From the sequence record OR437326.1: 64,000 nucleotides of DNA. One strand, given 5' to 3'. Under the pieces are notes generated by a model. It ran no database searches and was not told the origin of the DNA. It was given only the letters and a program-made list of their open reading frames with translations. Position 1 is the stretch's first letter; each line of letters begins with the position of its first letter. The stretch is from Escherichia phage iGC_PHA_EC001. Below, piece after piece: positions 26,988 through 37,731 of this stretch. The translations under genes and the position numbers were made by a program.

Positions 26988-27223
26988 TCTACAGCATCAT
27001 GAGTCCTTGCAAAACGCTCCCACAACACAGCATCTACTTTAAGAACCATACAAGGATAAATACTGTCGTTGATCATATCAATGCTATATTTATCTACATC
27101 CTTTTCATCTTCCATAAACAAAGTAGCGTATGCTTCTAAATGCTTACGGGTGTAGTATACATCCTCTTCAGTAAGACCGACAACCAGGTAACTTGCTACA
27201 ACAACAGTATTATCTTCTTGCAT
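26939..27223 (-). CDS. Hypothetical protein
   Basis: Start placed at ATG 27223 (GGGGAG upstream) directly after the upstream stop; the longer listed ORF overlaps the hydrolase gene. Confidence 0.3.
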   Translation of the reverse strand: MQEDNTVVVASYLVVGLTEEDVYYTRKHLEAYATLFMEDEKDVDKYSIDMINDSIYPCMVLKVDAVLWERFARTHDAVECSAVMSQNNILGEIH

Positions 27224-27224
27224 T

Positions 27225-27746
27225 TTAACTCCCCTTTGGTAGATAGAAACCATGCACTTTATCTCGATAAACAAGACGCATATCACGTTCCCAGTGTGTC
27301 CTTATATTCCGTTTCTTGAAGTATAGAGCACCTTTAGTAACATCTAAAACAGACCGCAATTCAGGAAAATGTTTCTCTAAATAAAGTAAACGCTCCGCTA
27401 TTGCTTTTGCTTCCTGCCACTTATCTTTCTCTGTTACGTTAAAAGTTTTCGCATATGAGAATTGTCCTTTCTGGAACAAGACTCCTCTGACTGTGTTAGG
27501 GAAGTAGGTATCATTTCTTCTGTTGATTACCACATTCCCAACGGCATTCATTCCTTTTTTACCCAGACCGCGACCTTCTGCGTAAATTGCACAAGCTAAT
27601 AGAATTTTATCATTATATTGCTTTGTACATTTGTGAACTACTTTAGCGGTTTTTACGTTTGCAGCTTCGGCTTTCGCCACAACAGGTGTAAATGTAAAAG
27701 CAGTTAAGGATAGTAACGCAACTGTTACAAAGTTTTTTATCAGCAA
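27225..27746 (-). CDS. Cell-wall hydrolase, SleB/Hydrolase_2-like, with signal peptide
   Basis: N-terminal LLSLTAFTFTPVVAKA; AIYAEGRGLGKKGMNAVGNVVINRRND..FPNTVRGVLFQKGQFS matches the SleB-type motif; TTG start 7 nt after AAGGAGG. Confidence 0.55.
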   Translation of the reverse strand: MLIKNFVTVALLSLTAFTFTPVVAKAEAANVKTAKVVHKCTKQYNDKILLACAIYAEGRGLGKKGMNAVGNVVINRRNDTYFPNTVRGVLFQKGQFSYAKTFNVTEKDKWQEAKAIAERLLYLEKHFPELRSVLDVTKGALYFKKRNIRTHWERDMRLVYRDKVHGFYLPKGS

Positions 27747-27774
27747 ATTTTGCCTCCTTTTTAAGTTAACGAAT

Positions 27775-27806
27775 TTCTAGTATAACACGATAGAGGCTTT
27801 ATTGCA
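27775..27806 (-). promoter_or_regulatory. Sigma70-like promoter for the cell-wall hydrolase gene
   Basis: On - strand: TTGCAA, 17 bp, TATACT, about 25 nt upstream of the AAGGAGG site. Confidence 0.35.
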
Positions 27807-27807
27807 A

Positions 27808-27827
27808 GAGGGGGATTTCTCCCCCTC
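27808..27827. other. GC hairpin GAGGGGGA-tttc-TCCCCCTC
   Basis: Perfect 8-bp stem, near-identical to the terminator stem at 8677..8695; lies between TerD and the hydrolase promoter. Confidence 0.4.
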
Positions 27828-27845
27828 AAAATCATTTGTTAATTA

Positions 27846-28448
27846 TTATGGACATTCATACCATTCTTTTTTACCACCGAAGGCCATCACCACATCACAA
27901 ATATCCAGACCAGCTTTACCTACACCATATGCTTTCAGCTTCCATTCCCCATCTTCACGAACCAAGGAAGCCACGTGGCAGATTGTGTTGCCAGCTACTT
28001 CAGGAGCCAGGAAGTCAAAATCCAGAATTTCCACATTGCGCTCGGAGTCGAAGATTTTAAGCATACCTTCAGAAGCATGACCAAAACGTTTCAGACCTGT
28101 ATCATCATCAATGGTCAGAACAAAGGCAATCTCTTGTGCATCAGGAGAGATTTTAGCCAGAGTAATATCAATCTGCTCCATGCTGCCAGTTCCATCACGA
28201 ACATCGTCACCAGCGAAGGTAGAACGTTCAGGATCAAACTTGTTAGCATAGCAAACCAGATGACGTGCAGACAGCATTTCAGGATTACCAGCGGCATTGT
28301 GACGACAAACCAGTGCACTTACATCCAGATCCAGTTTAGAATCAGATTTCCAAGAGAATTCCAGGCGCAGTTCTTTCAGAGCCGGAGCAACTTTCTTCAG
28401 GGAAATTTTTTCGCTAGAGCCTTTTTTCAGGGAAATTTTATCAGTCAT
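27846..28448 (-). CDS. terD: TerD-family protein
   Basis: ISLKKGSSEKISLKK, DLDVSALVC and GEWKLKAYGVGKAGLDICDV match the TerD fold (E. coli TerD SLSKGGNVSLSK / DLDASAFLL / GEWKFRAVGQGYAGGLASVC). Confidence 0.8.
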   Translation of the reverse strand: MTDKISLKKGSSEKISLKKVAPALKELRLEFSWKSDSKLDLDVSALVCRHNAAGNPEMLSARHLVCYANKFDPERSTFAGDDVRDGTGSMEQIDITLAKISPDAQEIAFVLTIDDDTGLKRFGHASEGMLKIFDSERNVEILDFDFLAPEVAGNTICHVASLVREDGEWKLKAYGVGKAGLDICDVVMAFGGKKEWYECP

Positions 28449-28463
28449 CTTTTGTCTCCTCTA

Positions 28464-28733
28464 TTATTTAAGTGTAATACCAGTTACAGTCAATTCTACT
28501 TCCAAAAGCTTAGATGTGTTTTGGATTGATACTAATTGTGCATGATGGTTTAGTTCTACAGCAGAATAATCATTTTCCCCATCATCTACTTTTAAATAAA
28601 CAATGATTTCACTAAGGTCTAAACCATTTTCGTCAAATGCATTTTCATAGACGAAAGTATCTCCTACATCCAAATCTTTAATGGTAAGGCATCGTTTATT
28701 TACTTTTTGCTCATCAATTTCGAAGTTTAACAC
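28464..28733 (-). CDS. Hypothetical small protein (paralog of 29755..30033)
   Basis: Shares L-x-I-x-DLDVG-x-TF-x-Y..A..E-x-GLD and a C-terminal VEL-x-VT-x-ITLK motif with its paralog. Confidence 0.35.
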   Translation of the reverse strand: MLNFEIDEQKVNKRCLTIKDLDVGDTFVYENAFDENGLDLSEIIVYLKVDDGENDYSAVELNHHAQLVSIQNTSKLLEVELTVTGITLK

Positions 28734-28962
28734 TTCTTCCTCCTAATGTTATCTCCGGTTTGTATATACGAAGAATTATAGCATTTTCATTTTCTTTGTC
28801 AACCCATTCTTCATAATCGGGCCATACATGAATCTCTACTCTACTTACAATATCTTCCATTCGCACAGTCCCAATGAAATACTCTTTGAGACTGCGCATA
28901 ATGAAAGCTTCTCTCTCGCGCCAATAATTTTCTATGACTTGAGAGGCAAGCTCGTCGATCAT
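28714..28962 (-). CDS. Hypothetical protein
   Basis: 82-aa ORF overlapping both neighbours by a few codons. Confidence 0.3.
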   Translation of the reverse strand: MIDELASQVIENYWREREAFIMRSLKEYFIGTVRMEDIVSRVEIHVWPDYEEWVDKENENAIILRIYKPEITLGGRSVKLRN

Positions 28963-29753
28963 TTTTTAGCACCCACTTTAACAACCCACTCTCCGAACTC
29001 TTCAGATAAGAGTTTGTCATAAAGCTCTGAATCTGTCAAGTCTAAATCTTTAATGCCAATAAAACCAACATTATCATAAGCATTTGCCAGTTCTTTCAGG
29101 AAGCCAAACTTCTCATTACCAACGCCAACCATGAACCAATAAATAGGTTTATTCTTATTCTCTTCGATAAGACGACGAACAGCACTAGGATCACCATTCT
29201 CACCATCCGTCTGGAAGAATACAACACTAGGGGTAACGTCAGCACCTGGTTCAGATACAGCTACAACTTTTTCACGCTCTACAGACACTGTTTCAGTTTT
29301 ACCAAGCAGACGATTAAAGAAGCCTTTCTTTGGAGCCTCCTCTTGTACCACTTGTTTAGTGGTAATATATTTAGTAACAGTGCCAAAATACTCATCGTAG
29401 ATATCCGCCATTACAGGGGCGTAATTTGTTCCACCTCCGATACGAACATTACGCATACATTTACCAACATAGTCATCGTAAACATCTGCTGTTGCTGGAG
29501 TAAGCTCTTGGGAACTCGTATTGAAGGCCCACATATCAATTTGTTGATTATCGTCGAACAGCATACCAAAAGGAAGCAGTTTACCTACAAAATCACTCAC
29601 TACCCCACTAGAATATAGACCATGCATACTACCAGAAATATCTAGAGCACATGCTACACGAAGAACAATCTTACCTTCATTCAGGTTCTTATTCTTTTTC
29701 AGAGAGAAAGCAAGGTTTTCTTGACGTTTTTTCAGGCTGATTTTCTCGGACAT
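28959..29753 (-). CDS. von Willebrand factor A domain protein, TerF/TerY-like
   Basis: MIDAS motif ALDISGSM; N-terminal EKISLKK shared with the TerD gene; 264 aa. Confidence 0.65.
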   Translation of the reverse strand: MSEKISLKKRQENLAFSLKKNKNLNEGKIVLRVACALDISGSMHGLYSSGVVSDFVGKLLPFGMLFDDNQQIDMWAFNTSSQELTPATADVYDDYVGKCMRNVRIGGGTNYAPVMADIYDEYFGTVTKYITTKQVVQEEAPKKGFFNRLLGKTETVSVEREKVVAVSEPGADVTPSVVFFQTDGENGDPSAVRRLIEENKNKPIYWFMVGVGNEKFGFLKELANAYDNVGFIGIKDLDLTDSELYDKLLSEEFGEWVVKVGAKK

Positions 29754-29754
29754 A

Positions 29755-30033
29755 TTATTTCTCCTTTTTAAGTGTAATATTGGTAACTTCTAAATCTACT
29801 TCCACCATATTTGTATCTGGTGGGATGCAATGAGTATAGCCTCGTTGTGCTAGTGATCCATTAATACAAATCGCACTGTTTGTGGAATTTTTAATGAACA
29901 CCAAGTTACGGTAGGTATCCAACCCTGCGTCTTCATAGGCATCATAATACATGAATGTTGCCCCTACGTCAAGATCTTCGAAAGCAATAGGTAAATCTTG
30001 ACTTTTTTCTTCTTGAATATTGAATCTAAACAC
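29755..30033 (-). CDS. Hypothetical small protein (paralog of 28464..28733)
   Basis: Start placed at GTG 30033 (GAGGAGG 5 nt upstream) to match the paralog's length; the listed 30099 start overlaps the upstream gene by 74 nt. Confidence 0.35.
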   Translation of the reverse strand: MFRFNIQEEKSQDLPIAFEDLDVGATFMYYDAYEDAGLDTYRNLVFIKNSTNSAICINGSLAQRGYTHCIPPDTNMVEVDLEVTNITLKKEK

Positions 30034-30589
30034 GCATACCTCCTCTACCAATTTTGAAGCCCAAATCGTAAGCTTCCTTAGTGATCTTTTGTAACTCACT
30101 TATAGGAAGTGTTACAAGAGGATCATCTTCTTCAATTTCCATCTTGTCATCTTCTGTTTCAATGAGAGTATTATGCACTTTGTGATAAGGGTTGTCAACA
30201 CGTTTAAACTTATTCTTTTCTGTGCTGAAAAAACAATCTGGATCTTCTTCACCATCACCCCAACCTTGGTTAGGATCTCCGTCAGATTGTTCTGTAGGGA
30301 TTTCACCTGTAAAGTACTCTTCCAGCACCATAGCGATACCGTCCCTTGGATTTGAGGAATGCATCAAATCACAAACCTTACTCCAATCCATAGCCCATTC
30401 AAATCGTTCACGAACGCCGTTTTCATCCTCCTTTCCAGAGAAAACACAACCATAACTATCATAGTTGCCATACATCTCTTCAATAACAACACCGTCCTTC
30501 AAAAGAAAAAGATAACAAGGTGATCCGTCGAAAGAAGTAGAAAGGGCAGCTTTGCCCGATTCTTTGCACAAAAAGCTAAAACAACCCAT
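30026..30589 (-). CDS. Hypothetical acidic protein
   Basis: 187-aa ORF in operon. Confidence 0.3.
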   Translation of the reverse strand: MGCFSFLCKESGKAALSTSFDGSPCYLFLLKDGVVIEEMYGNYDSYGCVFSGKEDENGVRERFEWAMDWSKVCDLMHSSNPRDGIAMVLEEYFTGEIPTEQSDGDPNQGWGDGEEDPDCFFSTEKNKFKRVDNPYHKVHNTLIETEDDKMEIEEDDPLVTLPISELQKITKEAYDLGFKIGRGGMRV

Positions 30590-30792
30590 TACAAACCCTC
30601 CTTCAGATTATCAAGAGCTATAGTGGTTTCACAAGAGTCTCCATAAGTTTTATGATGTTCCAGAAAAGCTTCGGGTCCACCCCAGTCATTATCTTGCGTA
30701 TTCCAGCCATCAATAAAAGCATCTTCAATGATTGTGATCAGTTCTTGTCGGGTTAACTGGATAATATTAGGATCGTTATCGTAGTTAAACAT
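30589..30792 (-). CDS. Hypothetical small protein
   Basis: 67-aa ORF, start overlaps downstream stop. Confidence 0.3.
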   Translation of the reverse strand: MFNYDNDPNIIQLTRQELITIIEDAFIDGWNTQDNDWGGPEAFLEHHKTYGDSCETTIALDNLKEGL

Positions 30793-30957
30793 CTTCTTCC
30801 TCCTCTAAAATATGGAACCCGTAATTACAATAATCCTGAAAGGTTTCGTGCGCAAGATCTTCTATATCCTCTTGAGACATATCATCTTCAATTTCGATAT
30901 CCACAACCTCATTGCATCCACACCAAGCAGTTTCAATATTCACTCGTAATATTTTCA

Positions 30958-31158
30958 TTACTCCTCCTCCTCCTCATTGAAGTCAATATCTGCAATGAGT
31001 TCGAATTTACGGAAGTTACGACAACCTTCATAAATATAACAATCACGACAAACTGCTAGAACACTTGGGGGATATATACCTCCCATCGGTGCGAATCGTT
31101 TTTCGTCATCATAACGGACACCAATGTCTTCATCAATTATATAGATACGGATTCTCAT
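30958..31158 (-). CDS. Hypothetical small Cys-containing protein
   Basis: 66 aa with CRDCYIYEGC and poly-Glu C-terminus. Confidence 0.3.
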   Translation of the reverse strand: MRIRIYIIDEDIGVRYDDEKRFAPMGGIYPPSVLAVCRDCYIYEGCRNFRKFELIADIDFNEEEEE

Positions 31159-32267
31159 TTACCAAGCCCTCGTTTCACAGCAGCTACCATCCCGTCTTCC
31201 AGAGATTGAACTTCATTAATATAATCAACACGAGCAGCACGGGCTTCCGTATTGATGCGGTTAGTTTCTTCCAACATCTTAACCAAGTTTTCCTGATCGT
31301 GACGCAGAGTTTCAATATCCAACACTTGACGGTTAGCCAGTGCTGCTGCTTCGATCTGATTCTGTGTGGCAAGATCGCTACCCAGTTTAATTGCTAGGTT
31401 AAATTCATCAAGAACGTTATTCTGCGTCTCTGCTGCTTTCATTTGACGTAAGCTCTCGATATACATTGAGAAGTTAGCAGAGTAAGCAGGAATAACATTA
31501 TTTACTATGTTACGCGCAGATCGCATTAAGCTTGCAGAAACTTTTTGCATACCTTGTACACGCGGTCCCATTTGGACACACAGTAGGCGCAATGCTTTTA
31601 AATCTGCAATACGAATCTCCAGAAGATCCAAAGTATCTCGGATCACTTGTCGCTGTTCTACTGCATCTTCTGGAAGAGCAGCCAAAGCTTGTTCTTCTTT
31701 TTCATAGGTTGCTGTTAGAAGCTGCATATCTCGGTTCAAACTTGCAGCATATTGTCCAATAGCTTGATGTAGCTTTTCAAGATATACCAAGGAATCTTCT
31801 TCTTTGCGAATATCCATTTGAAGGTTCTTTACCAACTCTTCAATACGGTTATTAACATTATCAAACTCCCCAAACAGGTCTTCTTTCATACCCATAACTT
31901 TTTTAATGAGTTTAGTAATACCCTTGCTTTGTTTAATAGAGTTTGGATCAAGTTGTTTTGCCTGTTTAATCAAAGCTGTGAGTCGTTCACTCATCTGATC
32001 GCCTTGATTACTACGTTGATGTTTTAATACCTCGGCATTCAAGGAGCGCAAGGTTGTTCCTGCCTCTGCCCCAATCTCTTCGATCTCTTGTCGGGTCATA
32101 GAAGGCAAAACTGGAACTTCTTGCGGTGCCGCTGGTGCATAAACAGGACTGGCATCTAACACGCTTGGAGCGAATACAGATTTACTTGCATCTGTTGTTG
32201 CAGCAAATACGCTCATTTCAGGCTTCTTCTGACCACCAGTAGCTGCTTTTAAAAATGGACTTGTCAT
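31155..32267 (-). CDS. TelA-like toxic-anion-resistance family protein (tentative)
   Basis: 370 aa, all-helical/coiled-coil character; QVLDIETLRHDQENLVKMLEE resembles the TelA C-terminal region as I recall it; sits inside the Ter gene context. Confidence 0.4.
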   Translation of the reverse strand: MTSPFLKAATGGQKKPEMSVFAATTDASKSVFAPSVLDASPVYAPAAPQEVPVLPSMTRQEIEEIGAEAGTTLRSLNAEVLKHQRSNQGDQMSERLTALIKQAKQLDPNSIKQSKGITKLIKKVMGMKEDLFGEFDNVNNRIEELVKNLQMDIRKEEDSLVYLEKLHQAIGQYAASLNRDMQLLTATYEKEEQALAALPEDAVEQRQVIRDTLDLLEIRIADLKALRLLCVQMGPRVQGMQKVSASLMRSARNIVNNVIPAYSANFSMYIESLRQMKAAETQNNVLDEFNLAIKLGSDLATQNQIEAAALANRQVLDIETLRHDQENLVKMLEETNRINTEARAARVDYINEVQSLEDGMVAAVKRGLGK

Positions 32268-32854
32268 TCTTCATTCTCCTCTTCTGCATCTCTTATATAT
32301 GGTGAAACACCGTACTCTTTAGCTACTTTAACCCAATCGTCCCATTTATACAACCATAATTTTCCTTCGGTCCCTTCTTTATCTGATTTCAACCACATAT
32401 TAGGTTGCTTACCTGGGTACATGCGATTAGGTTTACGATTATAACCTCTAACACATCTTGTCGCAAACCTATCTACCAGAACAAGAACATATTTATACTC
32501 GTGGTTCAACGGCTCTTTGGAAGTGGCTTTAGGATTAGCCCCTAATTCTGCTGCCAGTTTTTGCCAATGAGCACCGTGCCTACTAAACTTACCCATACAA
32601 CCATCAATAGCATGAGCAATTTCGTGCTTCATTGTATCCACGATCATATCTCTTGTGGAGTTCTTATGCAAGTGCCAATTTACAACAACAATTTTATCTC
32701 GGTAGTTGCACCAACCGAAAGAGTTATTCACTTTGTTTCTAACACAAGCTTTATATCCTGCTTCACGTAACATGTTGTAGTAAACAGGAAAATCTTCTTT
32801 TATTTCCTGCATCACTTCCCACCACAAGAGTTGCAAGTCTCTCTCGGTATGCAT
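32264..32854 (-). CDS. SprT-like zinc metallopeptidase domain protein
   Basis: HEIAHAI (HExxH) followed by HGAHWQKL, the SprT-like arrangement. Confidence 0.5.
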   Translation of the reverse strand: MHTERDLQLLWWEVMQEIKEDFPVYYNMLREAGYKACVRNKVNNSFGWCNYRDKIVVVNWHLHKNSTRDMIVDTMKHEIAHAIDGCMGKFSRHGAHWQKLAAELGANPKATSKEPLNHEYKYVLVLVDRFATRCVRGYNRKPNRMYPGKQPNMWLKSDKEGTEGKLWLYKWDDWVKVAKEYGVSPYIRDAEEENEE

Positions 32855-32857
32855 AAC

Positions 32858-33451
32858 TTACACCTTAAAAGCGAAATGCGTGGTCGTGGCTTCAAAATCA
32901 GGGCCAGATAAACTTGCACTGAAATCTGAAATATTTGTAATTAAAAAGCTTTTATGCATACCTAACACAGCCACGCTTTCAATATCTTCTACTAACATTT
33001 CAATCATGTTAGAAACATGGCTGAACGTATAGTTTTGTTTTTTGATGGTGTAGAAAGAAAGACTCCCACCTGCTGTATAAGATACCTCTTCAAAATCTTT
33101 AATCGTATATTGTGTGCCATCAGTAAAGAAAATGGTAGCTTTATTAGTAGCACGTTTCTTGTTTTTTGGTCCTTTTTTACGTTTACTGCGAGTAGGCAAA
33201 CCGTTTGGAAATACTGTAGCTACAAATTCTTCAGGAGAAACCTCCTTACCGAAATCATAACCGTAAGAAACAGCGTCTATAAACTCGTCGTCTTCATTTT
33301 TAAAATAATGGAAATAGGGCCAATTTGAGAGATTATCGAGCATCTTATGCTCATCCACAGCAGAGAACGTATCCCTCAAAGCGCGTGTGATTTGCAAAGC
33401 ATTAGGCAAACTTTTAACACCTGTAATGGAAGTACGAATAGAAATTGTCAT
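32858..33451 (-). CDS. Hypothetical protein
   Basis: 197-aa ORF in operon. Confidence 0.3.
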   Translation of the reverse strand: MTISIRTSITGVKSLPNALQITRALRDTFSAVDEHKMLDNLSNWPYFHYFKNEDDEFIDAVSYGYDFGKEVSPEEFVATVFPNGLPTRSKRKKGPKNKKRATNKATIFFTDGTQYTIKDFEEVSYTAGGSLSFYTIKKQNYTFSHVSNMIEMLVEDIESVAVLGMHKSFLITNISDFSASLSGPDFEATTTHFAFKV

Positions 33452-33465
33452 TGTTTTTCTCCTTA

Positions 33466-33903
33466 TTAACGTCGCTTGCTACGAGATGAACTCTTTTTAC
33501 TTAAAGGGCTATTGTAAGATTTGCGAGTTGTATAGCTACTATTTGTTTTAAAAGTTTGTCTCGGCTTTTCATAAGTTTTTATCTCTTGTTTAGGCTTACC
33601 ATAAAAATTAGTTTTCGGTTTAGGTGTATTATAATGCTTATTAATAATCGTTCTGTTATCGTTATAATCCCCACTGTTACGATTACTACCACCACTCATC
33701 ATATGCCCTAACAACATACCTGTAGCAAACTCACCAACACCGCTACTACTAGAACCGCCACCATTGTTGATAATAGTTGTATCTCCGTCAGATCCTTGTT
33801 GAGCGTATTGTTGAGGAGGTTGTTGGTATTGTGCAGGATTTGTTTCATCCTCGCAAGCTGTTAAAAAGATACAACCAATTAAAATCAGGGCTAGTTTTTT
33901 CAT
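33466..33903 (-). CDS. Lipoprotein (Gln/Pro-rich, Gly/Ser-rich, basic C-terminus)
   Basis: Start set at ATG 33903 (GAGGA upstream): MKKLALILIGCIFLTAC has a lipobox L-T-A-C. Confidence 0.45.
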   Translation of the reverse strand: MKKLALILIGCIFLTACEDETNPAQYQQPPQQYAQQGSDGDTTIINNGGGSSSSGVGEFATGMLLGHMMSGGSNRNSGDYNDNRTIINKHYNTPKPKTNFYGKPKQEIKTYEKPRQTFKTNSSYTTRKSYNSPLSKKSSSRSKRR

Positions 33904-34090
33904 ATTTGCTTTCCTCATTTTGACTATTAATACATCTGTGTTTGAAATCTCCAGAGAAGCAATAAAGTTGCTCTCCATCTCGGTATAAACTCACTTTACT
34001 GCCGTTGATTACGCTTGTCAATACAAAAATTACAACAAACAACCCTATTGCAAAACAAATATTTTCAAACACAATCAACAAGTATTTCAT
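33845..34090 (-). CDS. Small membrane protein overlapping the lipoprotein gene start
   Basis: N-terminal hydrophobic LLIVFENICFAIGLFVVIFVLTSVI; 3' end overlaps the lipoprotein start by about 60 nt in another frame. Confidence 0.3.
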   Translation of the reverse strand: MKYLLIVFENICFAIGLFVVIFVLTSVINGSKVSLYRDGEQLYCFSGDFKHRCINSQNEESKYEKTSPDFNWLYLFNSLRG

Positions 34091-34437
34091 TTTAAAAATA
34101 CCTCATCATCAGTTTCATTATCCCAGAAGAACAAATCCCAACCATTCGGATCATTCCATTTGGCTGCTGGAGAAGTCCATATTTGTTCGATATCAATATT
34201 CAAAACTTCACCGTTTCGTTTTGAAACAGCTTTAGTTAATTCCCAACGAGATACAGGCTCTACTTCCCCTGAACCACTCCCACAACAAGCTACCACGTTA
34301 GGAGGCAAATTAATTGGATCTTTGGTCACGATCATAACGCTTACCCCAGGGTAAACTTTTGAAAGATAATCTAAAACGTAATCCACATCACCAGATAAAT
34401 CCCAAACAAGTTCTTGAATTTCATCAAAATTATTCAT
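34087..34437 (-). CDS. Hypothetical acidic protein
   Basis: 116-aa ORF; ATGA overlap with downstream gene. Confidence 0.3.
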   Translation of the reverse strand: MNNFDEIQELVWDLSGDVDYVLDYLSKVYPGVSVMIVTKDPINLPPNVVACCGSGSGEVEPVSRWELTKAVSKRNGEVLNIDIEQIWTSPAAKWNDPNGWDLFFWDNETDDEVFLK

Positions 34438-34479
34438 AAGTCTCTCCTATAAAATAGCCTCCCGAAGGAGGCTCATCTA

Positions 34480-35454
34480 TTAAACAGCAGCTTCTTCTTT
34501 TTCAGGGAAGATAAAGCTTGCAATAACACCAAGAGCTAATGTGCCTAGAACAATCATCAGACTTACGTTAGGGGAAATATCATGCGGGAGGAATGACCAC
34601 TTGGCATGAAGTGTTTCACCGAACGGGTGATACATAAGTTTAGCACCGACAAATACCAGAACCACAGCAACAGCTTTCTCTAAGTGAACCAGATATTTCA
34701 CAGCCACACTTAACACAAAGAAAAGTGCACGTAAACCAAGAACAGCCATCAGCATTGCAGAATAAACTAGCAGAGGTTCTTGTGTCACACCGATCACAGC
34801 CGGAACTGAATCAAAAGAGAAGACAATATCTGTAAGCTCAATAACAAACACACAAAGAAGAGCAGGAGTTGCATATTTAATACCATTCTTAATGGTGATG
34901 AACTTTTCACCATCCAGTGCATTGTGCACAGGCAGAACTTTACCTACTAAACGAACAGCCCAATGCTTAGAGTAATCAATATCCTCTTCTTCGTCACCAC
35001 CTTTGATGATAGCCACGGCAGACCAAGCTACAATCAAACCGAACAACACTTGGACCGACCAATGAAGGTTAAACAAAGCGGTCCCTGCTGCAACAAAAAT
35101 ACCTCGGAAGACAATGGCTCCTGCAATTCCCCAAAGTAAAATCTTATGTTGGAGATGTGTGCTCTTAATTCCAAAGCTTGCAAAAATTGCCATGAACACC
35201 ATCAGGTTATCTACAGAAAGACTCTTTTCCAACACATAGCCACTTAGGAAAAGCGCGGCAAACTCTTTACCATGTTCTACCCAAATGAATGCGTAATATC
35301 CTAAAGCTAAAGCAATCCAAAAAACAGACCAAAGCAAAGCAGATTTAATTCCAATTTCTTTATTCTCTTTATGACCAAAGAAATCAATACCAATAGACAA
35401 TGCTAAAATACCAACTAAAACAACTACATCAATAATGGGGAAACCGAGTTGCAT
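34480..35454 (-). CDS. terC: TerC-family integral membrane protein
   Basis: Multiple TM helices; EKSLSVDNLMVF signature; 324 aa. Confidence 0.8.
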   Translation of the reverse strand: MQLGFPIIDVVVLVGILALSIGIDFFGHKENKEIGIKSALLWSVFWIALALGYYAFIWVEHGKEFAALFLSGYVLEKSLSVDNLMVFMAIFASFGIKSTHLQHKILLWGIAGAIVFRGIFVAAGTALFNLHWSVQVLFGLIVAWSAVAIIKGGDEEEDIDYSKHWAVRLVGKVLPVHNALDGEKFITIKNGIKYATPALLCVFVIELTDIVFSFDSVPAVIGVTQEPLLVYSAMLMAVLGLRALFFVLSVAVKYLVHLEKAVAVVLVFVGAKLMYHPFGETLHAKWSFLPHDISPNVSLMIVLGTLALGVIASFIFPEKEEAAV

Positions 35455-35455
35455 T

Positions 35456-35530
35456 CTTTTCTCCTCTCTTTGCGGGGAACTATTCCCCGCTTCATGTGAT
35501 ATATCTTACTCTTTTTAAGAACTATGTCAA
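35456..35530 (-). promoter_or_regulatory. Promoter plus 5' stem-loop cassette upstream of terC
   Basis: On - strand: TTGACA, spacer, TAAGAT, then hairpin GCGGGGAA-tag-TTCCCCGC, then AGAGAGGAG and ATG; same architecture as the early-region cassettes. Confidence 0.5.
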
Positions 35531-35533
35531 CAC

Positions 35534-35755
35534 TTATTTTGTTGAATGAGAGGAAAAGATTCCTCGTAATACAGCCAGAATAAACGAAACACAAACCACG
35601 GTCCAGAAGGTTACTGGGACAGTGATATCTGCATGACCCATAACTTCAGCAACATAGTTGTAAGCCAGCAACAGTAACCAAGCTGGAATCAAACTAAGCA
35701 TAAAAGCAATAACAAAAAAGCTTACCACTGCAACAATACCTGCAAAAACACCCAT
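35534..35755 (-). CDS. Small two-helix membrane protein
   Basis: 73 aa, two hydrophobic segments. Confidence 0.35.
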   Translation of the reverse strand: MGVFAGIVAVVSFFVIAFMLSLIPAWLLLLAYNYVAEVMGHADITVPVTFWTVVCVSFILAVLRGIFSSHSTK

Positions 35756-35767
35756 ACTAATCTCCTC

Positions 35768-36241
35768 TTAAAGTTTATAAATAGTCACATCGTGACCTGT
35801 TTTTACTAAAGTTTCTTCAATCATCACTTGGATGATAGCCCAATTACCTCCAGCATATCCAGCGCCAATCATAGGTAAGCCGATCTTACATTTTTGGTCA
35901 CGGAGAAGCAAATCATTAGCCATAGCTATTAGTGCATCATAAAGTGCATCATAGTCCAACTGACGACCTTTAGCATTGTATCCGTAACGGTATTGCCCGT
36001 ATAGATTATATACCAAAGGGTCTGATTGTTCGTCTGGCACCCCTAAACTAAAACAACCTAGTTTACTTTGATCACCAGCCATTGTGTCTAAGTCTGCTGC
36101 ATATGCGTAAGGAAATGCTCGTTTGATTTGTGGGGCAATACCTGCCCCCATATTACACATACAATTGCAACAATGAGCAATAACAGTTACTTCACCTGCT
36201 TTAGCGGCATCAATAAGATTACCTGTTTTAATTTTAAGCAT
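35768..36241 (-). CDS. Macro-domain protein (ADP-ribose binding/processing)
   Basis: Start at ATG 36241 with AAGGAG 8 nt upstream; VIAHCCNCMCNMGAGIAPQI and GLPMIGAGYAGGNWAIIQ match macro-domain glycine-rich loops. Confidence 0.7.
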   Translation of the reverse strand: MLKIKTGNLIDAAKAGEVTVIAHCCNCMCNMGAGIAPQIKRAFPYAYAADLDTMAGDQSKLGCFSLGVPDEQSDPLVYNLYGQYRYGYNAKGRQLDYDALYDALIAMANDLLLRDQKCKIGLPMIGAGYAGGNWAIIQVMIEETLVKTGHDVTIYKL

Positions 36242-36254
36242 TTTTAGCTCCTTA

Positions 36255-37082
36255 TTACAGAATGTGTTGTTTTGTGTAACGATCCAAGAATTCAAAGTTT
36301 TCAGCATACTTTGAAATTCGGTTGTAACCTTCTCCCAAGCATCCAAAGAAAAGTTGCTCTACATAGTAATGTGGCAATTGGCTAAGAATGATTTTGAAGT
36401 CTTCATGATTTTGGCCCATAAGATACTTAATAGGACGAACAAGACACTGTGCATCACGTTCTTCATTAATCATTTTAACAAACGCTTCTGGTGTATTAAT
36501 GTAGTTAAAATTCAGTTTAGCTTCGGTATCTGCTTGATTACCTTCGTATTTTGCAAAATACAGGAAGTAAACATCATTTTTAACTTGATTTTCATCAAGG
36601 ATCTCAATCAGTTTGTCTTCATGCGTTCCAGTGATATTTACATCATCAATGAATACAAGCTTCTTATCACCCCAGAATTCTTTGTTGCAGTAGAATGTAT
36701 CCCCATCAATAAGTTTCTTACGACTAGCTTTATCCAAGAAACCATAATCGTTGATATAGCTAACTTTACGATGAATAATGTCCAGTTCTGCTGAACGACC
36801 TTGATCATATTGTGATTGCAACATATTAAAGTAATTAATAAAATGATCTGTCATCATTGTTGCAGCATTATGCACATGGTTATAAGGAGAAGGAATGATA
36901 ACAAATTGTTCCCCAATATGTTTCATTGCCACTTGAGCAAAAAACTGAAGTGCCAATTCTTTACCCATACGACGCGCAGCTTGGTTACTACCAAATTTCA
37001 ATTTTGAATAATCTTGGATATCAAAAGTAGCAGTTTCCAGGTCATCAAATTTATTTGCAAAAATTTGAGTTTGATTACGCAT
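36255..37082 (-). CDS. Phosphoribosyltransferase-like protein (type I PRTase fold)
   Basis: KKLVFIDDVNITGTHE fits the PRPP-binding motif (hydrophobic run, DD, then T-G-T); ATG overlaps the HAD gene stop. Confidence 0.5.
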   Translation of the reverse strand: MRNQTQIFANKFDDLETATFDIQDYSKLKFGSNQAARRMGKELALQFFAQVAMKHIGEQFVIIPSPYNHVHNAATMMTDHFINYFNMLQSQYDQGRSAELDIIHRKVSYINDYGFLDKASRKKLIDGDTFYCNKEFWGDKKLVFIDDVNITGTHEDKLIEILDENQVKNDVYFLYFAKYEGNQADTEAKLNFNYINTPEAFVKMINEERDAQCLVRPIKYLMGQNHEDFKIILSQLPHYYVEQLFFGCLGEGYNRISKYAENFEFLDRYTKQHIL

Positions 37083-37731
37083 TTACAATTTCTCCTCTTT
37101 TAAGTTTCTCTAGTAAGTCGTTAGGGTTCTTAATATGACAGAAGTTAAATCCTAAGTCAACACATTTTCCATCATATTCTTCACTATCGCCTACGTGCAA
37201 CACTTCGTGCCCTAACAGAGGGATCGGAGAATACGTGAGCGTGCGAGCAAAGAATCGCGGATCTGGTTTACAAAGTAAAGCTTCATCCGAGAAATGGGTG
37301 AACTCAAAACAATTCCAACTATCAAACTTACAAGCACGACGCAGGATATCCCCTGATATGAAGTTGGTATTGCTCTTAATACTCAAATCATAACGCCCCG
37401 AAAGATACAGCAAGTACATCGGCAGATCCACGGCTACGTGTGGTGGAAACTTAAGGAACCACTGTTCACACTCGAAACGAAGCTTTGCAGACTTCCAAGG
37501 CGTTATCCCAAGTTCAGAACCAAGTCTTTCCCAGGCATATGCTGCACACTCGGCTTTGCCTTGAAGTGCTGCATTATCCAGTTCCTTTTTGATCTTTTTA
37601 TAAGCTGCTCTTGCTTCCACTTCCGTAATATCTCCATATTTTGCGATAGTCCAGGCTCGCATGTCTGCATAATTGGAGTTTGCTGTGATCAGTGTGTTCC
37701 ATACATCAAAAGAGATATGTTTAATAGTCAT
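37075..37731 (-). CDS. HAD-superfamily hydrolase (phosphatase)
   Basis: N-terminal ISFDVWNTLI (HAD motif I DxDx[TV]); 218 aa. Confidence 0.55.
   Translation of the reverse strand: MTIKHISFDVWNTLITANSNYADMRAWTIAKYGDITEVEARAAYKKIKKELDNAALQGKAECAAYAWERLGSELGITPWKSAKLRFECEQWFLKFPPHVAVDLPMYLLYLSGRYDLSIKSNTNFISGDILRRACKFDSWNCFEFTHFSDEALLCKPDPRFFARTLTYSPIPLLGHEVLHVGDSEEYDGKCVDLGFNFCHIKNPNDLLEKLKRGEIVNA

What the first reader, a model, noticed from the sequence alone, without database searches (positions are those of the whole stretch)
28464..30033. Duplicated small-protein genes preceding TerD and the vWA gene; shared EKISLKK N-terminus on TerD and vWA
Two roughly 90-aa paralogs (28464..28733 and 29755..30033) each sit immediately upstream of one of the two Ter-type proteins, and TerD and the vWA protein both begin with the same EKISLKK motif. 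This looks like a duplicated two-gene cassette (small protein plus TerD-like N-terminus) in which one copy gained a vWA domain; the small proteins could be dedicated partners or chaperones.
Basis: seen in the sequence. Interest (0 to 1): 0.45.

Follow-up and report, generated by a model that had tools for sequence, protein, structure and literature searches.

The report
Duplicated small partner genes, phage Ter module
A phAPEC8-like coliphage carries two diverged copies of a small acidic beta-barrel protein, found only beside the phage's TerD and vWA "tellurite-resistance-type" stress genes; the duplication is real but modest, and the shared EKISLKK start of the two Ter proteins is an old family-wide feature unrelated to it.

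Summary
The window is a Phapecoctavirus (phAPEC8-like coliphage, 99.6% identical to deposited genomes). The two ~90-aa ORFs are paralogs (34% identity, E=2e-14, both PHROG 11278). Small A ends 1 nt before the vWA-TerF-like gene and small B ends 15 nt before TerD. Both Ter proteins carry SEKISLKK.

Relatives with a single small gene (phi92, Klebsiella 05F01, metagenomic phages) still have the K(I/V)SLKK start on both proteins. Bacterial TerF and standalone vWA-TerF-like proteins, which have no small gene nearby, carry the same prefix before the vWA core. So no cassette "gained" a vWA domain.

The family comprises about two dozen proteins of 87-93 aa, all from these phages. In all 11 locus types examined it sits in the vWA-TerD module, either upstream of vWA or between vWA and TerD, in 1-3 copies. 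AlphaFold (pLDDT 89) gives an SH3-like small beta-barrel with no close solved relative. All members are acidic.

Small B and TerD have their own perfect sigma-70 promoter. The vWA prefix tracks the TerD N-terminus within each genome (permutation p about 0.001) using different codons, which points to selection on the peptide.

Most likely these are non-enzymatic accessory subunits of the phage Ter module. Binding is inferred, not shown.

The parts
29755..30033 (-). Small A: 92-aa acidic protein (pI 4.4), phrog_11278. It is translationally coupled to the vWA gene: its stop is 1 nt before the vWA ATG, and the vWA Shine-Dalgarno sequence lies inside its KKEK tail.
   Evidence: orthologs upstream of vWA in phi92, 05F01, phiWec179 and L021
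28959..29753 (-). vWA-TerF-like protein, 264 aa, with the MIDAS-type motif DISGS at residues 38-42. It has no TerD domain.
   Evidence: Pfam PF10138 E=7.8e-38, 131 bits against a cut-off of 29.4; the N-terminal 45 aa give no TerD hit
29694..29750 (-). Basic N-terminal prefix of the vWA protein (residues 2-20, SEKISLKKRQENLAFSLKK). It lies outside the Pfam vWA-TerF-like model and resembles the first two strands of TerD.
28714..28962 (-). 82-aa ORF (phrog_22387) inserted between vWA and small B. It is found only in Phapecoctavirus-type loci, is unrelated to the 187-aa ORF upstream of small A, and contains the promoter for small B and TerD.
28775..28802 (-). Perfect sigma-70 promoter, TTGACA-16-TATAAT with a TGn extended -10. 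It is the only one in the 64-kb window and lies about 40 nt upstream of the small B start codon.
   Evidence: 1 found, 0.05 expected; conserved in phiWec179, where small B is only 43-45% identical
28464..28733 (-). Small B: 89-aa acidic protein (pI 4.3), phrog_11278. Predicted SH3-like small beta-barrel. Lies immediately upstream of TerD.
   Evidence: (pLDDT 89.3)
27846..28448 (-). TerD-family protein, 200 aa.
   Evidence: Pfam PF02342 E=3.2e-28, residues 5-179
28392..28445 (-). TerD N-terminal double motif (TDKISLKKGSSEKISLKK), part of the TerD domain (profile positions 3 onward).
27808..27827 (-). GC-rich hairpin GAGGGGGAGAAATCCCCCTC, 19 nt after the TerD stop codon. It is terminator-like but lacks a clean U-tract.
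   Evidence: z = -4.0
30026..30589 (-). 187-aa ORF (phrog_14928) overlapping the small A start by 8 nt. Context only.
31155..32267 (-). TelA. It is part of the surrounding phage Ter island, which also includes SprT-like 32264-32854, TerC 34480-35454, Macro 35768-36346, PRTase_3 36255-37082 and a weak, below-cut-off HAD-like match at 37075-37731.

Best explanation
The two ORFs are diverged paralogs of a fast-evolving, phage-restricted family (PHROG 11278) of acidic proteins about 90 aa long, predicted to fold as SH3-like small beta-barrels. The family is a lineage-specific accessory component of the phage-borne Ter module (vWA-TerF-like plus TerD).

Shown:
- They are paralogs and real genes.
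- The family occurs only inside this module, in 1-3 copies. The small gene sits either upstream of vWA or between vWA and TerD. This phage has both positions.
- Small A is translationally coupled to vWA.
- Small B and TerD sit between a perfect sigma-70 promoter and a GC hairpin.
- The K(I/V)SLKK start of the vWA protein is a family-wide prefix, found also in bacteria. It mimics the TerD N-terminus, tracks it within each genome, and is unrelated to the small-gene duplication.

Inferred:
- The copy between vWA and TerD (small B) is the positional ortholog of the ancestral gene. Small A arose by local duplication near the base of the Phapecoctavirus/Justusliebigvirus/05F01 group, and phi92-like and 05F01-like phages later lost the B copy.
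- The proteins are non-enzymatic. They act as stoichiometric binding partners (adaptors or regulators) of the vWA and TerD proteins, which in the current model of Ter systems form a Ca2+-dependent assembly under the membrane together with TelA and TerC. After duplication each copy specialised on, and is co-expressed with, one partner.
- The acidic barrel may dock on the basic K(I/V)SLKK N-termini. This is speculation.
For: Paralogy: 34% identity, E=2e-14, and the same PHROG.

Family size and spread: an exhaustive HMM search of 1.84 billion representatives, plus word-index searches, found only about two dozen proteins of 87-93 aa.

Synteny: each of the 11 locus types examined places the gene next to vWA-TerF-like and/or TerD. 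These are window/L001, L002, L003, L004, L005, L006, L007-9, L019, L020 and L021. This holds although small-protein identity falls to 25-34% while vWA stays at 51% or more.

Copy number: 1 to 3; L021 has a tandem pair upstream of vWA plus a B copy.

Chemistry: the conserved positions are mostly hydrophobic or glycine, with T26, D39 and K48 the only nearly invariant polar ones and no conserved Cys or His. All 22 members are acidic, pI 4.3-5.4, and the partner N-termini carry net charges of +3 to +9.

Expression: coupling and overlapping starts; a unique promoter conserved in phiWec179; a hairpin after TerD.

Prefix: present in bacterial TerF and standalone vWA proteins and in phages lacking the small family. 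Own-genome similarity to the TerD N-terminus exceeds cross-genome similarity (means 28.75 against 22.8; shuffled control 16.5 +/- 3.9). Random pairings reached the observed sum in 44 of 40,320 permutations for 8 independent lineages. The motifs use different synonymous codons.

Outgroup lineages with the between-genes arrangement are slightly closer to B than to A (32-34% against 25%).
Against: - No physical or co-folding evidence links the small proteins to vWA or TerD. AlphaFold-Multimer could not be run.
- Ter modules in FBKp34, CcrPW, phiPsa374, ME3 and bacterial plasmids have no detectable family member, so the protein is dispensable for the core system.
- Similar small barrels of unknown function occur in many unrelated phages (BFVD, TM 0.6-0.7), so the fold is generic.
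- The deep nodes of the family tree are unresolved (bootstrap 16-19%). The order of duplication and loss therefore rests on parsimony alone.
- Acidity is common among small early phage proteins.
- The promoter lies inside a coding region, so part of its conservation could reflect protein constraint.
- The own-genome effect on the N-termini is moderate. In ME3 and the Rhizobium phage the own pair ranks only 9th and 8th of 12.
Confidence: 0.55

Rival explanations
1. One reading: an ancestral two-gene cassette (small gene plus a gene with a TerD-type N-terminus) was duplicated as a unit. One downstream copy kept its TerD-like start but acquired a vWA domain.
For: The best-conserved DNA stretch of the pair spans the small-gene 3' end, the ribosome-binding site and the first codons of the downstream gene (about 75% over about 80 nt). 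The octapeptide SEKISLKK is identical in both downstream proteins.
Against: - Single-small-gene phages have the motif on both proteins.
- Bacterial TerF and standalone vWA-TerF-like proteins have the prefix without any small gene nearby.
- Phages lacking the family have it too.
- The shared peptide is encoded by different Ile and Ser codons.
- The junction similarity is explained by the conserved C-terminal strand (ITLK), the Shine-Dalgarno sequence and the selected peptide.
- In outgroup phages the small gene lies downstream of vWA.
Confidence: 0.04
2. The small barrels bind a small-molecule ligand. They would act as sensors or sponges for the nucleotide-derived metabolite that the PRTase/HAD/Macro genes of the same island are predicted to make, in the manner of the small phage nucleotide sponge Tad2, rather than binding vWA or TerD directly.
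Confidence: 0.12
3. The small genes are generic, fast-evolving phage accessory ORFs (for example host-takeover or anti-defence proteins). They sit in the Ter region by inheritance, without functional connection to it, and the duplication is neutral.
For: There is no annotation. Evolution is very fast (53% and 45% identity where TerD is 91%). Structural look-alikes are scattered across unrelated phages. Some Ter modules lack them.
Against: Adjacency is retained although the gene changes side relative to vWA and the flanking genes change. Translational coupling to vWA and a shared promoter with TerD. The family is never seen outside this module in the loci recovered.
Confidence: 0.2
4. The small ORFs are not protein-coding, for example leader or spacer sequence regulating the downstream genes.
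For: They are short, start with GTG and overlap the upstream ORFs.
Against: Full-length protein conservation down to 25% identity with conserved hydrophobic periodicity. A confident fold prediction. Strong Shine-Dalgarno sequences. A dedicated PHROG.
Confidence: 0.02

Closest known systems
Ter (tellurite-resistance-type) stress/conflict systems: TerD, TerF (TerD+vWA), TerC and TelA with associated PRTase/HAD genes (Anantharaman, Iyer & Aravind 2012, cited from my own knowledge and via PMC7824862; phage-borne versions noted in PMC7824862, PMC8386662, PMC9796965)
   Same: The window carries TerD, a vWA-TerF-like protein, TelA, TerC, PRTase_3, a weak HAD-like match and a SprT-like protein in one co-oriented island. 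The vWA protein has the same ISLxKK prefix as bacterial TerF.
   Different: The vWA protein is standalone, with no TerD domain. The module contains one to three copies of a small beta-barrel protein that is undetectable in bacterial ter operons or in other phage Ter modules. I found no paper describing this component.
PHROG 11278 (phage protein family of unknown function); UniProt K7QLS7 of phAPEC8
   Same: Both ORFs match it over its full length. Small B is identical to K7QLS7.
   Different: The family carries no function, fold or context annotation. The Ter linkage, the SH3-like fold and the paralogy within genomes are added here.
SH3-like small beta-barrel domains (ribosomal L2 C-terminal domain, DtxR C-terminal SH3/FeoA, EF-P KOW, Tudor/PWWP)
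Small adaptor or cochaperone partners of vWA proteins (for example MoxR-vWA pairs)
   Same: A small or accessory protein is encoded next to, and co-expressed with, a vWA protein.
   Different: There is no AAA+ ATPase here and no homology. The analogy concerns gene organisation only.

Membership tests
PHROG 11278 (small A and small B) | Full-length match to the family profile | tested here: met
   E=4.2e-51 (small A, residues 1-92 of 92) and 7e-45 (small B, residues 1-89 of 92)
SH3-like small beta-barrel fold | A compact, strongly bent beta-barrel of five to six strands, with structural matches dominated by SH3-like domains | tested here: inconclusive
TerD family (27846..28448) | TerD domain above the Pfam gathering score | tested here: met
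   PF02342, 98.9 bits against 25.3, residues 5-179
vWA-TerF-like (28959..29753) | PF10138 match above the gathering score | tested here: met
   131.1 bits against 29.4, split into two stretches by an insertion
vWA-TerF-like (28959..29753) | MIDAS-type DxSxS motif at the start of the vWA core | tested here: met
   D38-I-S-G-S42. D38, S40 and S42 are invariant in 6 phage lineages, and the motif is present in bacterial TerF as LDASGSM.
TerF proper (TerD domain fused to vWA) | An N-terminal TerD domain in the same polypeptide | tested here: not met
   The only Pfam hits are vWA-type families plus a weak sub-threshold Flavodoxin_NdrI match, none of them TerD. The first 45 residues give no TerD hit even at E<=10, whereas the first 47 residues of TerD do. 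Bacterial TerF shows TerD at 1-161 and vWA at 212-412.
Ter system (gene-neighbourhood definition) | Co-location of TerD, TerC, TelA and vWA with PRTase/HAD biosynthetic genes | tested here: met
   TelA, TerC, TerD, vWA-TerF-like and PRTase_3 all lie on the minus strand between 27.8 and 37.1 kb. The HAD-type match at 37075-37731 is weak (21.2 bits against a cut-off of 26.4).
Ter system | Resistance or conflict phenotype (tellurite, colicin or phage inhibition) | not testable with these tools
   Needs experiments.
Tad2-type nucleotide sponge | Sequence or close structural homology to Tad2 (DUF2829) and a ligand pocket | tested here: not met
Dedicated chaperone or partner of TerD/vWA | Physical interaction with the downstream protein | not tested
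Only synteny, coupling and charge complementarity support it.

The most novel reading that the evidence does not exclude
The basic K(I/V)SLKK-type prefix of vWA-TerF-like proteins and the matching N-terminal hairpin of TerD may be one co-evolving interaction element. It would be kept alike within each genome by selection on the peptide. Through it the vWA and TerD proteins would exchange strands, or compete for one docking site, when the Ter scaffold assembles. In Stephanstirmvirinae-type phages the acidic SH3-like small proteins would be dedicated caps or adaptors for that element. Their duplication would have split the job between vWA (small A) and TerD (small B, with its own promoter). That would give the first concrete handle on how Ter components assemble.
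Probability: 0.15. Interest if true: 0.6.

Novelty: new variant of a known kind. Interest (0 to 1): 0.35.

Why it matters
Ter systems are widespread in bacteria, plasmids and phages, and they are linked to tellurite, colicin and phage resistance. How their components assemble and signal is still essentially unknown.

A phage-specific accessory subunit tied to vWA and TerD by strict synteny offers a testable entry point into module assembly. So does the observation that the vWA prefix mimics and tracks the TerD N-terminus across unrelated genomes. Both can be tested with pull-downs, co-folding and N-terminal swaps.

For phage genomics the result gives context and a fold to a "hypothetical protein" family present in more than 120 deposited coliphage genomes, some of them from phages studied as biocontrol or therapy candidates. 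If the small proteins turn out to be unconnected passengers, the finding is an ordinary local gene duplication.

Tried and rejected
- The first AlphaFold run with 8 near-identical sequences gave a useless model (pLDDT 42.7). A 22-sequence alignment fixed this.
- The exhaustive HMM search also returned giant repeat proteins. Those I scanned against Pfam carry DUF11/DUF7507, HYR or ankyrin repeats. The hits came from many short stretches around the GDTF motif, and one was an ankyrin-repeat protein, so I treated them as additive-score artefacts, not homologs.
- The genome-contig scan with the vWA alignment found only two phage-derived contigs in MAGs. Bacterial homologs were obtained from the plasmid collection instead.
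- The AFDB50 fold library was unavailable.
- The 82-aa ORF is not a paralog of the 187-aa ORF upstream of small A (E=0.057), so the duplication did not include the upstream gene.
- FBKp34 gp129 (85 aa, with a similar-looking GDVF motif) is not a detectable relative (hhalign probability 4%).
- The small-family HMM against all ORFs of the fetched loci found nothing beyond the known members.
- PADLOC found no defence-system match for any module protein.
- There are no solved structures for the small family or for the vWA protein.
- The Anantharaman 2012 Ter paper is not held in the library, so it is cited from memory and through PMC7824862.
- Gene conversion as the cause of the shared N-termini was rejected on codon evidence.
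Full report
**Identity of the window.** The region 27200-30600 is 99.0-99.6% identical to dozens of deposited phAPEC8-like coliphages (genus Phapecoctavirus, subfamily Stephanstirmvirinae). In those records the two small ORFs are annotated only as hypothetical proteins. Small B is identical to phAPEC8 UniProt K7QLS7.

**Gene order.** All genes are on the minus strand. Reading in the direction of transcription, the order is:
- TelA (31155-32267)
- three ORFs of about 60 aa
- a 187-aa ORF (30026-30589)
- small A (29755-30033)
- vWA-TerF-like (28959-29753)
- an 82-aa ORF (28714-28962)
- small B (28464-28733)
- TerD (27846-28448)
- a Hydrolase_2 endolysin (27225-27746)

Further upstream lie a SprT-like protein, TerC, a Macro domain, PRTase_3 and a weak, below-cut-off HAD-like match. 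The finding therefore sits inside a fairly complete phage-borne Ter island. Such islands are already described for phages in general (PMC7824862, PMC8386662, PMC9796965).

**Check of the observation.** Small A and small B align end to end at 34% identity, E=2e-14. Both match PHROG 11278 over its full length. Each starts at GTG behind AGGAGG and overlaps the upstream ORF. Small A's stop is 1 nt before the vWA ATG, and the vWA Shine-Dalgarno sequence AAGGAG is encoded in small A's K-K-E-K tail. Small B's stop is 15 nt before the TerD ATG. The vWA protein starts M-SEKISLKK, and TerD starts MTDKISLKKGS-SEKISLKK.

**The small family.**
- *Size and spread.* Word-index searches and an exhaustive HMM search of 1.84 billion representatives recover only about two dozen proteins of 87-93 aa. 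The large repeat proteins that also scored are artefacts of many short additive matches.
- *Chemistry.* The invariant positions are hydrophobic or glycine. Three polar positions (T26, D39, K48) are nearly invariant, and there is no conserved Cys or His. All members are acidic, pI 4.3-5.4. This looks like a non-enzymatic interaction module.

**Comparative context.** Every locus type recovered places the small gene inside the vWA-TerD module, but the position and copy number vary.
- phi92 (Justusliebigvirus) and Klebsiella phage 05F01: small, then vWA, then TerD.
- Five metagenomic lineages whose vWA is 51-62% identical to the window's: vWA, then small, then TerD.
- Phapecoctaviruses, including the divergent phiWec179: small A, vWA, 82-aa ORF, small B, TerD.
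- One metagenomic relative (L021): a tandem pair upstream of vWA plus the B copy, three in all.

The small proteins evolve much faster than their neighbours. Against phiWec179, small A is 53% and small B 45% identical, compared with 74% for vWA and 91% for TerD. The A-B identity of 34-38% is therefore comparable to ortholog divergence across the deepest ingroup split (40% to 05F01).

A neighbour-joining tree recovers an A clade, a B clade and a "between-genes" clade, but the deep nodes are unresolved. By parsimony on position, and because the outgroup proteins are slightly closer to B than to A (32-34% against 25%), I infer three steps: B is the ancestral-position copy, A arose by an old local duplication, and phi92-like and 05F01-like phages lost B. 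This is inference, not demonstration.

The 82-aa ORF is specific to Phapecoctavirus-type loci and is unrelated to the 187-aa ORF. Only the small gene was duplicated.

**The shared N-terminus.**
- The K(I/V)SLKK double motif is on both vWA and TerD in all single-small-gene phages.
- It is also present in phages where the small-family HMM finds nothing: FBKp34, CcrPW, phiPsa374 and ME3.
- Bacterial TerF from IncHI plasmids and from a P. aeruginosa plasmid carries RISLEKK...L(V/I)SLAKKA(S/Q)VSL(T/E)K between its TerD domain (residues 1-161) and its Pfam vWA domain (212-412). A standalone Caballeronia vWA protein starts MITLEKRAAKVSIVLEKR.

The motif is therefore an ancient prefix of the vWA-TerF-like module that Pfam does not model. 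It was not inherited from a TerD gene through a phage cassette duplication.

**Within-genome covariation of the two N-termini.** Across unrelated genomes the prefix resembles the TerD N-terminus of the same genome. Examples:

| Genome | vWA prefix | TerD N-terminus |
|---|---|---|
| CcrPW | MSDVINLAK | VSDTINLSK |
| phiPsa374 | MLDLTK..ELNLEK | ELNLSK..MLDLTK |
| PPSC2 | LLDLTK..ELNLEK | QLNLSK..MLDLTK |
| ME3 | MTSQVISLKK | MTTQHVIPLTK |
| L020 | MSEKISLKK | MSEKISLKK |
| IncHI plasmid | VSLAKKASVSLTK | VSLSKGGNVSLSK |

Best ungapped BLOSUM62 scores average 28.75 for own-genome pairs and 22.8 for cross-genome pairs. Shuffled TerD N-termini give 16.5 +/- 3.9. Random re-pairing reaches the observed own-genome sum in 15 of 100,000 shuffles for 12 lineages, and in 44 of 40,320 permutations for 8 independent lineages.

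The shared peptides are encoded by different synonymous codons. In the window Ile-Ser is ATC AGC in vWA and ATT TCC in TerD, and L020 and phiPsa374 show similar differences. Selection on the peptide, not recent gene conversion, therefore maintains the resemblance.

The effect is moderate and not universal: the own pair ranks 9th in ME3 and 8th in the Rhizobium phage. It needs a larger, phylogeny-aware survey.

**Expression signals.** The only perfect TTGACA-N16-18-TATAAT promoter in the 64-kb window (0.05 expected by chance) lies at 28802-28775 on the minus strand. It has a TGn extended -10, sits inside the 82-aa ORF, and is about 40 nt upstream of small B. Both hexamers and the TG are conserved in phiWec179 despite divergence of the flanks.

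A GC-rich hairpin (27827-27808) follows TerD, with a folding z-score of -4.0. phi92 has a promoter-like site (my reading: TTGACT-16-TAAAAT) in its vWA-TerD spacer. The annotators of FBKp34 placed a promoter there too. TerD thus tends to be its own transcription unit, and in this phage small B belongs to it.

**Mechanism.** The best-supported reading is that these are lineage-specific, non-enzymatic accessory subunits (adaptors or regulators) of the phage Ter module, duplicated and partitioned between vWA and TerD. The evidence is strict synteny despite fast sequence change, translational coupling or co-transcription, a generic protein-interaction fold, and charge complementarity with the basic N-termini (net +3 to +9). 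Binding itself is inferred.

Rivals:
- Unconnected accessory ORFs.
- Non-coding sequence (excluded).

**Novelty and score.** Phage-borne Ter modules are known, the two ORFs are already clustered in one PHROG, and the genome is essentially a deposited one. New here are:
- the link between this small family and the vWA/TerD pair
- its fold
- its variable position and copy number
- the dedicated promoter
- the within-genome tracking of the vWA prefix and the TerD N-terminus

I rate this a new variant of a known kind, interest 0.35. The most novel reading not excluded, a co-evolving N-terminal interaction element capped by the small proteins, has a probability of about 0.15.

Noticed in passing
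window 28775-28802 (- strand): Perfect extended -10 sigma-70 promoter (TTGACA-16-TGcTATAAT) embedded in the 82-aa ORF. It is the only perfect match in 64 kb (0.05 expected) and is conserved in phiWec179 (L004 5229-5256).
   Followed up: yes
window 27808-27827 (- strand): Strong GC hairpin GAGGGGGAGAAATCCCCCTC just after TerD (folding z = -4.0). It overlaps a promoter-like site (27807-27779, TTGCAA-17-TATACT with TG) in front of the endolysin gene. It has no clean U-tract, so the consensus terminator scan missed it.
   Followed up: partly
window 27846-37731 (- strand): A fairly complete phage Ter island: a weak HAD-like match, PRTase_3 (ComF-like), Macro domain, TerC, a 170-aa low-complexity Ser/Gly/Gln-rich ORF (33466-33978), SprT-like metallopeptidase, TelA, vWA-TerF-like and TerD. 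The Macro domain next to the PRTase/HAD genes hints at ADP-ribose-type chemistry.
   Followed up: partly
bacterial TerF: L013 5473-6714 (residues ~175-211), L014 4404-5663, L029 7473-8714: A conserved region of about 35 residues with two or three (I/V)SLxKK repeats lies between the TerD and vWA domains of TerF. No Pfam model covers it. It resembles the first two strands of TerD.
   Followed up: yes
L021 3728-5582 (Logan SRR12532581 contig, 56 kb): A Phapecoctavirus-like metagenomic phage with three copies of the small gene: a 90-aa and 92-aa tandem pair upstream of vWA, plus a 93-aa copy upstream of TerD.
   Followed up: partly
protein P0009 (55 aa, 14.5-kb Logan contig): A variant in which the first ~23 residues of the 187-aa ORF are fused in frame to the last ~35 residues of small A. 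This is apparently a natural deletion removing most of both genes.
   Followed up: no
records MG065650.1 and others ('Campylobacter phage B15/C3/A150'), OP562383.1 ('Acinetobacter phage ABPW7'), OR584014.1 ('Pseudomonas phage PsgM04F'), OK210077.1 ('Serratia phage KKP_3264'): Several records named for non-E. coli hosts are 99% identical, or closely related, to coliphages of this subfamily. The host labels may reflect contamination or mislabelling.
   Followed up: no
window 28959-29753, residues ~125-165 of the vWA protein: The phage vWA-TerF-like proteins carry an insertion that splits the Pfam match in two. It contains a conserved KGFFxKLxGK motif, which is also present in the Caballeronia plasmid homolog as SFLSRLFGG.
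   Followed up: no
L017 4659-4913 (phiPsa374 gp14, 84 aa) and L015 4391-4980 (FBKp34 gp129/gp130): Other phage Ter modules also have small uncharacterised ORFs directly upstream of their vWA gene. These are not detectable homologs of the family here (HMM and hhalign negative), and analogy is possible but untested.
   Followed up: partly
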